A DNA stretch of 64,000 nt from a virus (Duplodnaviria; Heunggongvirae; Uroviricota; Caudoviricetes). Position numbers and translations under genes: made by a program. The stretch lies in IMG/VR virus record IMGVR_UViG_3300002026_000057; one strand, 5' to 3'. The notes beneath the pieces were generated by a model. That model saw nothing but the letters and a program-made list of their open reading frames with translations, ran no database searches and was not told the origin of the DNA. Shown piece by piece: positions 13,773 through 17,304 of the stretch (positions within the stretch are counted from its first letter, which is position 1; every line of letters starts with the position of its first letter).

Positions 13773-14708
13773 TTATCCTAATTCATGGAAAACATCTTCA
13801 ACTTGTTTAGTAAGGTTAATATAATCAGGTGAGAATTTTGTGTCCCTATTCCGTCTTGTTCCAAAATCAATATCAAATTCTTTGTACATTTCTCCGGGAT
13901 TGTTCTTCATTATATACAATCTATTTGAAAGATATACGGCTTCTCGGATGTCGTGAGTTACCAAAATGAAAGTAACATCAATTTTATCCGAATAAAACAG
14001 TTCTAAAAGAACATTCTGAAGTTCCGTTCTGTTTTTGATGTCAAGAGCTGAAAATGGCTCGTCGAGCAAAAGAATCTGTGGGTTGGCAATTAATGATCTT
14101 GCGATAGCAACTCTCTGTAATTGTCCACCTGAAAGTAAGGGGTACTTTGCCCACTTATTTTCGTGGCCGGTTAACCCAACCAATTTGATGATTTCTTCTG
14201 CCTTATCAAAAGCTTCCCTTTTGTTAACACCTTTTAATAACAAGGGTAAGGCTACGTTTTCAATAACAGATTTCCAATGAAATGAAGAATACTGTTGAAA
14301 TACCATTGGAATATGATCCTTTTCGGTTTTCTTCTTTCCATAAAGATAAATCTCACCGGAAGTTGGCTTCTGTAACCCTGCGATATATCTAAGGATGGTT
14401 GATTTACCACACCCCGATTTACCAAGAATTGAGATGAACTGACCTTGGTTAGGAATATCCTCAATATCGAAATTTAGGTTATTAAACAGAGTGACGTCTT
14501 CCTTAACTCCTTTATATATCTGAGTGATACCCTTTAGACTGATAACATCAGATAGTTTACCGGAAATAATTGGTTCTTCAATTTCTTTGGAAGAGATATC
14601 TTCGGGTTCTGAGTTTTTATTACCAAACAAACCACGTTTTGTTGATGGAACATCTTGTGGGCTTTCCACGGGTGTTTCTTCTATTTTATTTTGATTGAAT
14701 AAATTCAT
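13773..14708 (-). CDS. ABC transporter ATP-binding protein (NitT/TauT/SsuB-like)
   Basis: Walker A GKSGCGKST, ABC signature LSGGQLQRVAIARSL, Walker B LLLDEPFSALD. Confidence 0.85.
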   Translation of the reverse strand: MNLFNQNKIEETPVESPQDVPSTKRGLFGNKNSEPEDISSKEIEEPIISGKLSDVISLKGITQIYKGVKEDVTLFNNLNFDIEDIPNQGQFISILGKSGCGKSTILRYIAGLQKPTSGEIYLYGKKKTEKDHIPMVFQQYSSFHWKSVIENVALPLLLKGVNKREAFDKAEEIIKLVGLTGHENKWAKYPLLSGGQLQRVAIARSLIANPQILLLDEPFSALDIKNRTELQNVLLELFYSDKIDVTFILVTHDIREAVYLSNRLYIMKNNPGEMYKEFDIDFGTRRNRDTKFSPDYINLTKQVEDVFHELG

Positions 14709-15568
14709 TATTTCAGGATAAATTTAGAAATTGATTTTTTTACTTGTCCATCATATTTGAAAGGAAATATCATTTTGTCTATGGTCCTAAAGATTCTGTC
14801 CTGAAGATACCCGAACATAACAATAATAAGAACCAAAGCAAAAATTGGTGGAGTTTGTGATTGTTTTGCCGATACGAAAATCATACCACCCAAACCACCT
14901 TCCATATTCAAAAGTTCTACGATAACAATATATGTCCATGATATGGCAACAAGTACACGGATATCGTCAGAGATTTTAGACATTGCATATGGGAAATAAA
15001 GGTGTCGAACCTTTTGCCATTTACTTGCTCCGAGGGTAGTTATGGTTTGTTTATGTAAAGATTCAATTTCATCTATTCTCTGTACAATAACAGGAATAAG
15101 ATAAAGTAAAATACCGAACGATAAGAAATGTATTTTCAGACCAGATCCAAGACCAAACAATGCTACAAATATACCTGTAATAGCGGGAAGTGGAAGGAAT
15201 CTCAATGCGTCAAAATACTTACTAACCAATGCACGAATACCGGGAACAAGACCCATTGCAAACCCAATCGGAATTGAAATGACTATGGCTTCAAGATATC
15301 CTGATAAGTTCAGTTTAAGTGAAAATAAAGCGTTTCCAACTAATCCATTCTCATATAATGAACCTAAAGAGGATACAACTGCTAATGGTGATGGAAGGAT
15401 TGATGATGAAATATTACCATATGTTGTAACTAACTGCCATAGGGTAATTAACAATACGAATCCCACAACCCCGATAATGGTTGATTGAGTTTTGGTGATT
15501 TCACCTTCAATTTGGAAAGCTTTCATATTACTTATGTTTGCTGGTTTCACGTCCGATGTAAACCCCAA
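14708..15568 (-). CDS. ABC transporter permease (SsuC/TauC-like); the real start is probably the ATG at 15526 (MKAFQ...)
   Basis: Multi-TM protein with a BPD-transport-like conserved loop. The ORF-track start is a TTG. An ATG at 15524-15526 directly follows the stop of a small upstream ORF. Confidence 0.75.
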   Translation of the reverse strand: MGFTSDVKPANISNMKAFQIEGEITKTQSTIIGVVGFVLLITLWQLVTTYGNISSSILPSPLAVVSSLGSLYENGLVGNALFSLKLNLSGYLEAIVISIPIGFAMGLVPGIRALVSKYFDALRFLPLPAITGIFVALFGLGSGLKIHFLSFGILLYLIPVIVQRIDEIESLHKQTITTLGASKWQKVRHLYFPYAMSKISDDIRVLVAISWTYIVIVELLNMEGGLGGMIFVSAKQSQTPPIFALVLIIVMFGYLQDRIFRTIDKMIFPFKYDGQVKKSISKFILK

Positions 15569-15692
15569 GAGCTATAAGTCCGAGAAGGGTTGCACCAACT
15601 ATAATTTTAAATAGAACTACTGCCAAATGAAATCCGAGGATACACAATAATCCGAAAGCGATGATTAATAAAAATACTTTTGTTTTTTTCAT
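15528..15692 (-). CDS. small hydrophobic 2-TM peptide (54 aa, MKKTKVFLLIIAFGLLCILGF...) preceding the permease
   Basis: Hand-translated. Its stop TAA is followed by T and then the permease ATG. Below the 60-aa cutoff of the ORF track. Confidence 0.3.
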   Translation of the reverse strand: MKKTKVFLLIIAFGLLCILGFHLAVVLFKIIVGATLLGLIALGVYIGRETSKHK

Positions 15693-15720
15693 GGTTTTTT
15701 ATATAAGATTTTTATATTAG

Positions 15721-15756
15721 AAAAATGGGGTTAGGAAGTTCCCAACCCCATCTTAG
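15721..15756 (-). terminator. hairpin TGGGGTT-AGGAAGTTCCC-AACCCCA with a T-run on the minus strand, between the binding-protein and permease genes (attenuator-like)
   Basis: 7-bp stem. A5 on the plus strand equals T5 after the hairpin on the minus strand. Confidence 0.45.
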
Positions 15757-15765
15757 TGATTTCAA

Positions 15766-17304
15766 CTATTCTTCTATGAGCTGGAAATCCGTTCTCCTGT
15801 AAGCTTCATTTGCTCCCTTCACACCCGCAGCGTCTGCTTTGGATTTTCCGTTCCCTACAACAATGAACCTATTTGAATCAAAACCATATTCCTTAACCAG
15901 ATAATCCGCTACGGCTTGTGCTCTTTTGAATGAAAGAGTTCTGTTATAACCTGCGTCACCGACAGCGTCTGTGTTACCTTCAATCCTAATTCTGGCCTGT
16001 GCAAATGTTTTGGCGAGGTCAACGAATTCTCTATCAATTGTATACCTAGCATCATCGGACAGATTTGATGAATTAGTTTCAAAATTAATGGTAACTTGTT
16101 TATTTGATATTGCGGCCTTCTCTTTAACTTCTGCGGTTACAGGAGTAAATTTAGCCATACTTTCGGATTCCTGATTAGTAGTAAGGGTAATAGCTTCAAT
16201 AACTGTGGTATTTGATATTGTTCTCCACGCCACCGAATTACTTGCCAATCTAAGATCCGAATATACTATTGACATTTTAGAATAAAGTTGTTCACCCGTA
16301 ATTCCTTGATATCTTGGATTCAGTCCAAAGAAATCTTTATTATCACCAAGGGTAGTTAGTCTCACATTTTTAATACCATCGTAAAAGAACCCTGGATCCA
16401 TATCCCATTCTTTACCACATATGTTAGCTGCTTCATGTTTTAATACATCGGATGCATTAAGTTGACCGTTGGCGTCTAACCACGCTGTTGTAAATTTAAG
16501 AATAAGATCAAAGTTTTCTTCAAGGAAAGGTTCTTTTACAAGAATACCATCTGCGATAATATGTGTTGCGGTTTTAGTATTTACGAGAACTTTAGTACCC
16601 GGAACTGCGTCAACACAATCAAGGTCATCTGGACTCCATACCACTGCGGCATCAACCTGTCCTGCTTTATAAAACTTAGCGGCTTCGATACCATCAGATG
16701 CCTTCTTTAAGACAACATCACTAATATTTAAACCATTTGATTCAAGTACTTTAACAAGAAGTGAATTTGATGCTGTACCTACGGCATATGCTACTGTTTT
16801 ACCTTTAAGATCAGCGACGGTGTTTATTCCTTTACGAACAACAATTGCGTCACCACCACGGCTCCAGTCAACCTGAACGAACTGTACGGCTTCAGACTCA
16901 ACCATACCAGATCCTGCACCCATTTCAATTGGTAGAACATCTGTGGTACAATATACTAAATCATATTCACCGGCTTTGAAATTATTACGAGAGTCATCAA
17001 ACACATCGTTGATTTTGATTTGGAGTTTAATACCATACTTCTGATAAAGTTCAGAGTTTGTGTTTGGATCAAGACCACCATTCATCCATACGATAGGTGC
17101 AAATCCCGACCAAGTATTGATACCGAGTACCAGGTCTGGCTTATCAGAATTAGACTTTTTCGGAGCCTTTGTTTTGCTCTCAGACGTATTTGTATTTTCT
17201 TTACCTTTGAATATTTCCGGTTTTGTGAAATACAATGCTCCTGCGATACCACCTACTACAAGGAGTATGAGGAAAAATTTGAAACCTGTTGTTAATTTTG
17301 CCAT
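15766..17304 (-). CDS. ABC substrate-binding protein (NMT1/SsuA-like) with C-terminal OmpA-like peptidoglycan-binding domain and N-terminal TM anchor
   Basis: N-terminal TM helix, periplasmic binding-protein-like body. C-terminus NTDAVGDAGYNRTLSFKRAQAVADYL matches the OmpA-family motif. Confidence 0.7.
   Translation of the reverse strand: MAKLTTGFKFFLILLVVGGIAGALYFTKPEIFKGKENTNTSESKTKAPKKSNSDKPDLVLGINTWSGFAPIVWMNGGLDPNTNSELYQKYGIKLQIKINDVFDDSRNNFKAGEYDLVYCTTDVLPIEMGAGSGMVESEAVQFVQVDWSRGGDAIVVRKGINTVADLKGKTVAYAVGTASNSLLVKVLESNGLNISDVVLKKASDGIEAAKFYKAGQVDAAVVWSPDDLDCVDAVPGTKVLVNTKTATHIIADGILVKEPFLEENFDLILKFTTAWLDANGQLNASDVLKHEAANICGKEWDMDPGFFYDGIKNVRLTTLGDNKDFFGLNPRYQGITGEQLYSKMSIVYSDLRLASNSVAWRTISNTTVIEAITLTTNQESESMAKFTPVTAEVKEKAAISNKQVTINFETNSSNLSDDARYTIDREFVDLAKTFAQARIRIEGNTDAVGDAGYNRTLSFKRAQAVADYLVKEYGFDSNRFIVVGNGKSKADAAGVKGANEAYRRTDFQLIEE

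What the first reader, a model, noticed from the sequence alone, without database searches (positions are those of the whole stretch)
13773..17304. Complete three-gene ABC importer (NitT/TauT type) encoded by the phage, with an OmpA-domain-fused substrate-binding protein
The operon encodes an ATPase (Walker A/B plus LSGGQ), an SsuC/TauC-like permease and an NMT1/SsuA-like binding protein, in canonical order on the minus strand. A possible 54-aa membrane peptide sits in front of the permease. The binding protein has an N-terminal TM anchor and a C-terminal OmpA-like peptidoglycan-binding domain (NTDAVGDAGYNRTLSFKRAQAVADYL), an unusual fusion. A hairpin between the binding-protein and permease genes looks like an internal attenuator. 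A whole sulfonate/nitrate/bicarbonate-type uptake system is a substantial auxiliary metabolic cargo for a phage.
Basis: partly seen in the sequence, partly recalled or inferred. Interest (0 to 1): 0.65.

Follow-up and report, generated by a model that had tools for sequence, protein, structure and literature searches.

The report
Megaphage PspA-linked ABC importer module
A huge phage carries a complete, intact ABC uptake system whose binding protein is tied to both the membrane and the cell wall; it is the transporter half of a five-gene module, with a PspA-like membrane protein, that Bacteroidota bacteria and megaphages from Lak to Bacillus phage G share and whose function nobody has tested.

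Summary
ATPase (13773-14708), permease (14708-15526), a real 54-aa two-TM protein (15528-15692), a conserved terminator-like hairpin (15718-15754) and a TM-anchored TauA/SsuA-fold binding protein with a C-terminal OmpA domain (15766-17304) are all present. They lie inside phage DNA.

The interpretation needs correcting in three ways.
- The fusion is not unusual. More than 3000 database relatives carry it, including at least 568 loci in GTDB genomes (mostly Bacteroidota, with complete chromosomes and a cultured Tenacibaculum).
- The unit has five genes, not three. A coiled-coil protein (18294-18941) and a membrane-anchored, remotely PspA/Vipp1-like protein (17341-18286, broken here by a 68-nt deletion) precede the binding protein in nearly all 150 loci examined. 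Ravi et al. 2024 noted this operon type in bacteria.
- No specific substrate is supported. All equivalog scores are below cut-off. TauA's amine-binding residues are invariant, but its sulfonate contacts are not kept.

The phage copies form their own clades, separate from a 100%-supported cellular clade. They occur in Lak phages, a 735-kb phage and phage G (gp243-250), so this is long-held phage equipment, not recent host cargo. It is most likely an envelope-maintenance and solute-uptake module. New member of a known but uncharacterised kind.

The parts
18294..18941 (-). Gene A: 215-aa soluble coiled-coil protein, first gene of the conserved five-gene module
   Evidence: Found next to B in nearly all 150 related loci. 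Alignments A3/A5. Only generic coiled-coil matches in Pfam and PDB. Not demonstrably a paralogue of B (hhalign probability 25%).
17738..18286 (-). Gene B, N-terminal fragment (182 aa): TM helices plus the first half of a PspA/Vipp1-like helical hairpin
   Evidence: Aligns to the N-terminal half of the 335-355-aa orthologues. The intact 337-aa version is on the otherwise identical contig L155.
17341..17760 (-). Gene B, C-terminal fragment (139 aa), out of frame with the N-terminal fragment
   Evidence: Aligns to the C-terminal half of the orthologues. Family-level PspA/Vipp1 signal: PF04012 in 10 of 27 members, best E=5e-6. Profile A4 against Vipp1 E=2e-4. Foldseek ranks 1-15 are all Vipp1/PspA.
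17750..17751 (.). Site of a 68-nt deletion, relative to sibling contig L155, that frameshifts gene B
   Evidence: The window is 100% identical to L155 over window 5766-20737 except for this gap.
15766..17304 (-). Gene S: 512-aa substrate-binding protein. N-terminal signal-anchor TM helix, TauA/SsuA-fold binding domain, C-terminal OmpA-like peptidoglycan-binding domain
   Evidence: Pfam NMT1/NMT1_2/OmpA. AF2 pLDDT 89.7. Foldseek TauA 6ssy E=2.7e-15 and SsuA 2x26. Domain profile against TauA E=1e-15. Pocket and peptidoglycan-binding residues are conserved.
15718..15754 (-). Intrinsic-terminator-like hairpin (15-bp stem, 3-nt loop, U-tract) directly after the S stop codon; probable partial terminator
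   Evidence: MFE -22.9 kcal/mol, z=-4.3, 0 of 200 shuffles. Compensatory changes in L157-L160. Equivalent hairpins follow S in 24 of 40 viral and 17 of 35 cellular loci with a gap of at least 30 nt.
15528..15692 (-). 54-aa two-TM membrane protein gene, specific to this phage sub-lineage
   Evidence: Intact ORF of the same length, with conserved GFHxAV and GxYIGRET motifs, at about 75% DNA identity in L157-L160. Called as a gene on L155, L156 and L158. No family match.
14708..15526 (-). Gene P: ABC importer permease (272 aa from ATG 15526)
   Evidence: BPD_transp_1 E=3.6e-14. Closest to SaoP and TauC, both below cut-off. Start codon inferred from the sequence and from sibling gene calls.
13773..14708 (-). 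Gene T: ABC ATPase (311 aa) with a roughly 55-aa N-terminal extension of low complexity
   Evidence: PF00005 E=2e-29. SaoA, NtrCD and TauB-like, all below cut-off. All catalytic motifs can be read in the translation.

Best explanation
The flagged genes are the transporter half of a conserved five-gene module, A-B-S-P-T, carried by a huge phage that probably infects Bacteroidota.

Proposed arrangement:
- P and T form a type I ABC importer in the host inner membrane.
- S is held at that membrane by an uncleaved N-terminal helix. Its TauA/SsuA-fold domain faces the periplasm. Its C-terminal OmpA domain grips peptidoglycan, so the binding protein is tethered at both ends close to the transporter.
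- S most likely delivers a small amine-bearing solute, a taurine-like zwitterion or a related compound.
- B, a PspA/Vipp1-like protein anchored by TM helices, sits on the cytoplasmic face with its partner A.
- A partial terminator after S gives more A, B and S than P and T.

Proposed role: during the long infection cycle of a very large phage, the module helps keep the envelope and solute balance of the infected cell intact, that is, membrane maintenance coupled to solute uptake.

Shown: gene content, domains, catalytic and pocket residues, synteny, conservation, the separate phage clade, and the hairpin.

Inferred: import direction, ligand class, any physical link between B/A and the transporter, and the role in infection.
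For: - Intact parts: all ABC motifs are present, and the SBP model is confident.
- Fold and sequence neighbours: TauA and SsuA are closest by both fold and sequence.
- Pocket residues: TauA's essential amine-binding Glu106 maps to Asp152 (120 of 121 members). Its taurine-selectivity residue Asp205 maps to Asp252 (121 of 121). Trp176 maps to Trp223. The helix-start Ser/Thr motif is kept as G-T-A-S.
- Peptidoglycan binding: the OmpA Asp446/Arg461 pair is invariant outside the phage-G group.
- Synteny: the order A-B-S-P-T holds in nearly all of 80 genome loci and 71 IMG/VR loci, and in LR756501 (735 kb), Lak-B1 and phage G gp243-250.
- B is PspA/Vipp1-like.
- Independent description of the same operon type in bacteria, with the same reading of S: PMC11237479.
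- Phage DNA on both flanks.
- Separate phage clade: window+L084+L085 98/100; cellular crown clade 100/100 with no viral member.
- Hairpin conserved through compensatory changes and recurrent across the family.
Against: - There is no experimental evidence for any step.
- The PspA assignment for B is remote. No member reaches Pfam's gathering score. The window-lineage protein itself has no PF04012 hit. The lineage-only profile A7 does not reach Vipp1. Foldseek E-values are only 0.01-0.2.
- Ligand mapping rests on a 14-20%-identity alignment. TauA's sulfonate contacts are not kept (Gly61->Phe102, Gly79->Thr120, and Gln30 is unaligned with no conserved equivalent), so the anionic half of the ligand is undefined.
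- In this window B is broken by a 68-nt deletion. Either this variant lacks a working B or the assembly is wrong.
- Co-location does not prove that B/A and the transporter act together.
- No structural phage genes lie in the window.
Confidence: 0.55

Rival explanations
1. Stand-alone nutrient-acquisition gene set (classical auxiliary metabolic cargo). The phage boosts uptake of an organosulfonate, taurine, aminophosphonate or similar compound as a source of S, N or P for virion production. On this view the neighbouring A and B genes are functionally unrelated.
For: TauA and SsuA are the nearest structural and sequence relatives. The amine-binding residues of TauA are kept. A PAPS-reductase-family gene lies at 50895-51797 (phrog_424). 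Phages are known to carry single binding-protein genes such as cyanophage pstS (own knowledge).
Against: Every equivalog model (TauA, SsuA, NrtA, urea-associated) is far below its cut-off. No tauD or ssuDE-like catabolic partner is in the window or in the viral loci. The transporter is nearly always next to A and B, in cells and phages alike. Peptidoglycan anchoring of a scavenging binding protein has no obvious benefit. PAPS-reductase-like phage proteins are commonly DNA-modification enzymes, not sulfur assimilation (own knowledge).
Confidence: 0.2
2. Envelope tether, or an exclusion or counter-defence device. The key activity would be the double-anchored S protein plus PspA-like B stabilising or sealing the inner membrane, for example against membrane-depolarising abortive-infection effectors, premature holin action or superinfecting phages. 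The ABC parts would serve as an energised scaffold or sensor, not a bulk importer.
For: PspA/Vipp1 proteins repair and stabilise membranes (named family knowledge; Vipp1/PspA matches). S is tethered to both membrane and wall. Other huge gut phages also carry pspA-like and terD stress genes (PMC12880540). The module is long conserved in very large phages.
Against: P is an ordinary type I importer permease (BPD_transp_1), a class not known for mechanotransmission. The ligand pocket of S is invariant across phages and cells, which argues for real solute binding. There is no match to known defence systems beyond generic ABC and MotB-like domains.
Confidence: 0.17
3. The window is host chromosome, or the transporter lies on the host side of a prophage boundary.
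For: Cellular genomes do carry a homologous module. No capsid, portal or terminase gene lies in the window.
Against: Phage protein families lie on both sides: phrog_200, phrog_25279, phrog_10079 and phrog_30528 on the left; phrog_1583, phrog_8133, Dda-like helicase, DNA ligase and RNA ligase on the right. The window has a 26-tRNA array plus a suppressor tRNA and uniformly low GC. Its nearest relatives are IMG/VR contigs, and the window sits in a viral clade with 98% support, apart from the cellular clade.
Confidence: 0.03

Closest known systems
Bacterial PspA/Snf7(TM)-ABC ATPase-permease-'PBPB+OmpA' operons described by comparative genomics (Ravi et al. 2024, mSystems, PMC11237479)
   Same: [quoted passage not shown] That paper also mentions an extra coiled-coil gene in Bacteroidetes neighbourhoods. 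It proposes the same reading: OmpA binds the wall and the PBP domain binds the transported solute.
   Different: That description is for bacteria and mentions an associated AAA+ ATPase. Here the module is in a phage. No AAA+ gene is present (only 4 of 61 cellular and 0 of 69 viral loci have one). A lineage-specific 54-aa membrane protein is added. Function is untested in both.
E. coli TauABC and SsuABC alkanesulfonate importers (NitT/TauT family)
   Same: Same three-component type I importer layout. S has the TauA/SsuA fold (target TM-score 0.76-0.80). It keeps TauA's amine-binding Glu106 and Asp205 equivalents and Trp176.
   Different: Only 14-20% identity, and below all NCBIfam cut-offs. TauA's sulfonate contacts are not kept. 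S is TM-anchored and OmpA-fused, not a free periplasmic protein. There is no tauD or ssuDE partner. It is always linked to A and B.
PspA / IM30 / Vipp1 (bacterial ESCRT-III superfamily)
   Same: B has a long helical hairpin followed by further helices. The family profile aligns from the conserved start of Vipp1 helix 1. The top 15 structural matches are Vipp1/PspA.
   Different: The N-terminal amphipathic helix is replaced by TM helices. Similarity is below curated thresholds. B is about 100 aa longer, with a distinct conserved C-terminal region.
Phage-encoded single binding-protein genes (e.g. cyanophage PstS; own knowledge)
   Same: A phage carries a solute-uptake component that is expressed in the infected cell.
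   Different: Those phages carry only the binding protein, which plugs into the host transporter, and the gene is clearly host-derived. Here the whole transporter plus two accessory proteins is encoded, and the phage copies form old clades of their own.
OmpA/MotB/Pal-type peptidoglycan anchors
   Same: The C-terminal domain passes the Pfam OmpA threshold and keeps the Asp/Arg pair that binds the peptide stem of peptidoglycan. The layout (N-terminal inner-membrane helix, periplasmic linker, OmpA domain) resembles MotB.
   Different: A complete solute-binding domain is inserted between the anchor helix and the OmpA domain.

Membership tests
Type I ABC importer, NitT/TauT family | Nucleotide-binding subunit with Walker A, Q-loop, LSGGQ signature, Walker B and H-loop | tested here: met
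   PF00005 103 bits against a cut-off of 25. GKSGCGKST, MVFQQ, LSGGQ, LLLDEP and VTHD read in the translation.
Type I ABC importer, NitT/TauT family | Permease of the BPD_transp_1 (binding-protein-dependent) type | tested here: met
   PF00528 53.3 bits against a cut-off of 26.4. Best NCBIfam matches are SaoP and TauC.
Type I ABC importer, NitT/TauT family | Binding protein with the NMT1/SsuA-type two-lobe fold | tested here: met
   PF09084 36.8 bits (cut-off 20.5) and PF13379 25.3 bits (cut-off 24.7). AF2 pLDDT 89.7. Foldseek TauA/SsuA E about 1e-15, target TM-score 0.76-0.80.
Type I ABC importer, NitT/TauT family | Membership of a characterised substrate-specific equivalog (TauA, SsuA, NrtA, CmpA, urea-associated) | tested here: not met
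   All are far below their curated cut-offs: TIGR03427 81.5 against 333.9, SsuA_fam 71.7 against 163.5, TauA 33.2 against 304.
Type I ABC importer, NitT/TauT family | ATP-driven import of a defined solute | not testable with these tools
   Needs binding and transport assays.
TauA-type taurine binding site | Amine-binding Glu106 and Asp205, plus Trp176 | tested here: met
   These map to Asp152 (120 of 121), Asp252 (121 of 121) and Trp223 (W, F or Y). The alignment is remote.
TauA-type taurine binding site | Sulfonate contacts Gln30, Gly61, Gly79 and Thr132 | tested here: not met
   Gly61->Phe102 and Gly79->Thr120. Gln30 is unaligned, and the candidate equivalent N63 is not conserved (Val in 45 of 61 genome loci). 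Only the Thr132 region is kept, as G-T177-A-S.
OmpA-like peptidoglycan-binding domain (PF00691) | Profile match above the curated threshold | tested here: met
   60.8 bits against 27.2. OprF C-terminal domain 5u1h E=2.9e-12.
OmpA-like peptidoglycan-binding domain (PF00691) | Conserved Asp and Arg that bind the diaminopimelate of the peptide stem (own knowledge of OmpA-like domain structures) | tested here: met
   D446 in GNTD and R461 in KRA are invariant in 117 of 117 members outside the phage-G group.
PspA/IM30/Vipp1 (gene B) | PF04012 match above the gathering score | tested here: not met
   No hit for the window-lineage B. The best hit among 27 relatives is E=5e-6, below the 33.9-bit cut-off.
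PspA/IM30/Vipp1 (gene B) | Helical hairpin followed by further helices, matching Vipp1/PspA structures | tested here: inconclusive
   AF2 hairpin at 99-155 and 158-200 with pLDDT 80-90, but overall pLDDT 63.8. Foldseek ranks 1-15 are Vipp1/PspA at E 0.014-0.2. Profile A4 against Vipp1 E=2e-4, but profile A7 gives no hit.
PspA/IM30/Vipp1 (gene B) | N-terminal amphipathic membrane-binding helix | tested here: not met
   It is replaced by predicted TM helices at 21-71, as in the 'TM-segment' PspA/Snf7 variants of PMC11237479.
PspA(TM)-ABC-PBPB/OmpA operon (Ravi et al. 2024) | Co-located PspA-superfamily TM protein, ABC ATPase, permease and PBP+OmpA protein | tested here: met
   Window order A-B-S-(54 aa)-P-T. 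The same order holds in cellular loci such as L045.
PspA(TM)-ABC-PBPB/OmpA operon (Ravi et al. 2024) | Associated AAA+ ATPase | tested here: not met
   None in the window. Present in 4 of 61 cellular and 0 of 69 viral loci.
Known anti-phage defence systems (PADLOC) | Match of module proteins to defence-system models | tested here: not met
   Only generic ABC-ATPase (mad3) and MotB-like (ZorB) domain hits. No hit for A, B, P or the 54-aa protein.

The most novel reading that the evidence does not exclude
Very large phages, from Bacillus phage G to Lak megaphages and 640-735-kb phages, have long maintained their own ESCRT-III-superfamily (PspA-like) membrane-maintenance machine. On this reading it is physically coupled to a wall-anchored ABC importer, and it is used to keep the oversized, long-lived infected cell intact or to resist membrane-targeting host defences. 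The deep, diverse phage clades, set against the compact cellular clade, would then mean that phages are the reservoir from which Bacteroidota obtained the module.
Probability: 0.25. Interest if true: 0.7.

Novelty: new member of a known kind. Interest (0 to 1): 0.45.

Why it matters
If the module works as proposed, huge phages bring their own envelope-maintenance and solute-uptake equipment. That would help explain how cells survive long enough to build virions approaching half a cell width.

It would also give a first functional handle on a widespread but uncharacterised Bacteroidota operon that links a PspA-like protein to an ABC importer.

The module is present in phage G, the only cultivated megaphage (gp243-gp250), and in culturable Tenacibaculum and Flavobacteriaceae. 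So it can be tested directly by genetics, ligand screening and imaging.

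Tried and rejected
- Host-chromosome or prophage-edge reading: rejected. Phage families lie on both flanks, there is a tRNA array, and the window sits in a viral clade.
- 'Unusual fusion': rejected by database and genome scans.
- A as a paralogue of B: hhalign probability is only 25%.
- Known defence system: PADLOC gives only generic domain hits.
- AAA+ ATPase, PF10014 dioxygenase and methyltransferase as module members: present in only 4-6 of 61 cellular loci and 0 of 69 viral loci.
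- A recurrent 'GGLF' motif in the S linker, T N-terminus and A N-terminus: present in only 14 of 153, 4 of 132 and 4 of 123, so treated as chance or low complexity.
- UAA recoding suggested by the suppressor tRNA: TAA ends 59 of 75 long ORFs, so there is no sign of recoding in this window.
- Lineage-only B profile (A7) against the PDB: no Vipp1 hit.
- tblastn of the 540-aa ORF (60068-61690) against phage genomes: no match.
- Literature searches for a phage report of this module: none found in the Lak, phage G, Jug-phage or general searches.
- Substrate assignment from profiles: no equivalog passes its cut-off.

Full report
**1. What is there**

On the minus strand the window encodes the following:
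- an ABC ATPase (13773-14708, 311 aa);
- a BPD_transp_1 permease;
- a 54-aa ORF (15528-15692);
- a 512-aa binding protein (15766-17304).

Pfam gives ABC_tran E=2e-29, BPD_transp_1 E=3.6e-14, and NMT1/NMT1_2 plus OmpA (60.8 bits) for the binding protein. The ATPase has every catalytic motif.

The permease most likely starts at ATG 15526 (MKAFQIEGE, 272 aa), one base after the stop codon of the 54-aa ORF. That is how it is called on sibling contigs. The upstream TTG at 15568 is unlikely to be the start.

The AlphaFold model of the binding protein is confident (pLDDT 89.7, pTM 0.82). It shows an N-terminal TM helix (6-27), a disordered linker (33-53), a two-lobe binding domain (58-371) and an OmpA domain (400-511).

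**2. The small claims hold**

The hairpin sits directly after the binding-protein stop codon. It has a 15-bp stem, a 3-nt loop and a U-tract, with MFE -22.9 kcal/mol, z=-4.3, and none of 200 shuffles folding as well.

In relatives whose binding protein is 83-85% identical, the stem is kept through compensatory changes (ATGGGG...CCCCAT versus GAGGGG...CCCCTC). In the same relatives the 54-aa ORF keeps its length, frame, two hydrophobic helices and the GFHxAV and GxYIGRET motifs, despite about 25% nucleotide divergence. So the hairpin and the small ORF are both real.

The small gene is confined to this sub-lineage. Terminator-like hairpins after the binding-protein gene are a general feature: 24 of 40 viral and 17 of 35 cellular loci that have a gap of at least 30 nt. 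That fits a design giving more binding protein than membrane subunits. This last point is an inference.

**3. It is phage DNA**

- The window has a 26-tRNA array (41944-47900) and a UAA-suppressor tRNA.
- GC content is uniformly low.
- Phage protein families lie on both sides of the module. On the left are phrog_200 (4.5e-64), phrog_25279, phrog_10079 (9e-48) and phrog_30528. On the right are phrog_1583, phrog_8133 (1e-79), a Dda-like helicase (4e-83), an ATP-dependent DNA ligase (2e-105) and an RNA ligase.
- No virion genes fall in the window.
- Translated searches find the binding protein at 40-45% identity over 90-100% of its length in all 15 Lak megaphage records and in the 735-kb LR756501/LR756503. 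It is found at 29% in Bacillus phage G gp249.
- IMG/VR holds 71 loci, many on contigs of 200-675 kb.

**4. The fusion is common and also cellular**

The protein database returns more than 3000 relatives. The top 120 all carry NMT1+OmpA. NCBI names some of them 'phosphate ABC transporter substrate-binding/OmpA family protein'.

GTDB species representatives hold at least 568 relatives, mostly Bacteroidota. These include complete chromosomes (Flavipsychrobacter 3.2 Mb, Saprospiraceae 6.2 Mb) and the cultured Tenacibaculum xiamenense. The flanks there are ordinary cellular genes: a ClC channel, arginine deiminase, a TonB-dependent receptor and type I R-M.

**5. The unit is five genes**

The same order recurs in the window, the 735-kb phage, Lak-B1, Tenacibaculum and nearly all 150 fetched loci:
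- A, a roughly 215-aa coiled-coil protein;
- B, a roughly 340-aa protein with N-terminal TM helices and a long coiled coil;
- S, P and T.

Phage G and its relatives have the order P-T-A-B-x-S(-S) (gp243-gp250).

B is remotely PspA/Vipp1-like. The supporting evidence:
- Ten of 27 members hit PF04012, best E=5e-6.
- The family profile aligns to Vipp1 from its conserved helix-1 start, E=2e-4.
- Six database relatives carry a precomputed PF04012 hit.
- The model has a confident helical hairpin.
- The 15 best structural matches are all Vipp1/PspA.

The caveats: no member passes Pfam's threshold, the window-lineage protein has no direct hit, and a lineage-only profile misses Vipp1.

A shows only generic coiled-coil similarity and is not demonstrably related to B.

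Ravi et al. [quoted passage not shown] I found no report of the module in phages.

**6. Gene B is broken in this window**

The window is 100% identical to JGI contig L155 over window 5766-20737, except for a 68-nt deletion at 17750/17751. The deletion splits B into overlapping ORFs of 182 and 139 aa. L155 has an intact 337-aa B. Whether this is a real variant or an assembly error cannot be decided here.

**7. Phage and cellular copies are distinct**

I built a neighbour-joining tree of concatenated S+P+T (121 taxa, 1022 columns).
- The five confidently cellular copies fall in a 32-taxon clade with no viral contig (100/100 bootstraps).
- The window groups with IMG/VR contigs L084 and L085 (98/100).
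- The window lies with the Lak phages in a 46-taxon clade that has no confident cellular member (71/100).

The module is therefore not a recent pickup from a host. The direction of the ancient transfer is open. Several 'MAG' contigs nest within viral clades and are probably misbinned phage.

**8. What the binding protein may bind**

All NCBIfam substrate-specific models are far below their cut-offs. By fold and by profile, the nearest solved proteins are TauA and SsuA.

I took TauA's published ligand contacts from PMC6906117 and placed them on the profile alignment. PDB chain numbering plus 21 gives the paper's numbering, and six residues check out at the computed positions.

What is kept:
- The essential amine-binding Glu106 corresponds to Asp152.
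- The taurine-selectivity residue Asp205 (Gly in SsuA) corresponds to Asp252.
- Trp176 corresponds to Trp223.
- The Thr132 helix start corresponds to G-T177-A-S.

Asp252, Thr120, Ser148, Gly150 and Pro225 are invariant in 121 of 121 members, and Asp152 in 120 of 121.

What is not kept: the sulfonate contacts. Gly61 becomes Phe102, Gly79 becomes Thr120, and Gln30 has no conserved equivalent.

The pocket is therefore intact and under the same constraint in phages and cells. It probably takes an amine-bearing small molecule. A sulfonate is not implied.

The OmpA Asp446/Arg461 pair is invariant outside the phage-G group.

**9. Interpretation**

The best-supported reading is a functional type I importer with a doubly tethered binding protein, acting alongside a PspA-like membrane protein in envelope and solute homeostasis of the infected cell (confidence about 0.55).

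The rivals:
- a pure nutrient-scavenging gene set (0.2);
- a membrane-sealing, exclusion or counter-defence role in which transport is secondary (0.17);
- host DNA (0.03).

There is no match to known defence systems. Accessory neighbours seen in some cellular loci (an AAA+ ATPase, a PF10014 dioxygenase, a methyltransferase) are absent from all viral loci.

**10. Verdict**

The feature is a phage member of a known but functionally uncharacterised module. Its breadth among megaphages and its link to a PspA-like protein are the interesting parts. It can be tested in phage G.

Noticed in passing
window 41944-47900 (+): Dense array of 26 tRNA genes in about 6 kb. It includes several duplicated isoacceptors, four tRNA-Met(CAT) genes and one call with an odd two-base anticodon (45737-45811). 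Local GC rises to 0.43.
   Followed up: partly
window 8805-8877 (-): A tRNA with anticodon UUA, a UAA suppressor (Rfam tRNA 66.5 bits). Yet TAA ends 59 of 75 long ORFs in this window. So it is either used only for genes outside the window (for example late genes) or has another role.
   Followed up: partly
window 17750/17751: A 68-nt deletion, relative to an otherwise 100% identical JGI contig (L155), frameshifts the PspA-like gene B. It is either a real population variant or an assembly error.
   Followed up: yes
window 11880-12992 (-): A 370-aa protein made of three PAS domains with no output domain. It lies about 0.8 kb downstream of the ATPase and is kept at the same relative position in relatives at 85% identity (L155, L157). 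It may be a phage-encoded sensor.
   Followed up: no
window 9142-9717 and 11467-11880 (-): A peptide deformylase with a C-terminal SEC-C motif, and a NUDIX hydrolase, in the same leftward gene block.
   Followed up: no
window 50895-51797 (-): A PAPS-reductase-family protein (phrog_424, 4.7e-52). It could be read as sulfur metabolism, but in phages this family is often a DNA-modification enzyme.
   Followed up: no
L003 (Lak-B1) 7507-8870 and 11832-12137: Lak phages have three small paralogous genes inserted between the binding-protein and permease genes. They also have a second, truncated ATPase-like ORF about 1 kb downstream of the ATPase.
   Followed up: no
L002 (phage G) 5989-9194: Phage G carries two tandem binding-protein/OmpA paralogues (gp249, gp250). 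In the phage-G-like group the Asp of the peptidoglycan-binding pair is lost in 3 of 4 sequences, while the Arg is kept.
   Followed up: partly
L005, L034, L040, L050, L078, L008, L029, L031, L033 (GTDB 'MAG' contigs): These contigs are binned as Prevotella, Paludibacteraceae or Bacteroidales genomes (up to 280 kb). In the S+P+T tree they nest inside viral clades, so they are probably huge-phage contigs misassigned to bacterial bins.
   Followed up: partly
L045 13331-15215; L047 11588-15042: In a few cellular loci (5-6 of 61) a PF10014 2OG-Fe dioxygenase and a PRMT5-like methyltransferase lie just downstream of the module. By my recollection PF10014 is a family of free-amino-acid hydroxylases. 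L047 also has an arginine deiminase upstream. This is a possible hint about the solute's chemistry.
   Followed up: partly
window 13773-14708 (-), residues 1-55: The phage ATPase has a low-complexity N-terminal extension of about 55 aa. It is longer still in the 735-kb phage (385-aa protein) and absent from the cellular orthologues (about 269 aa).
   Followed up: no
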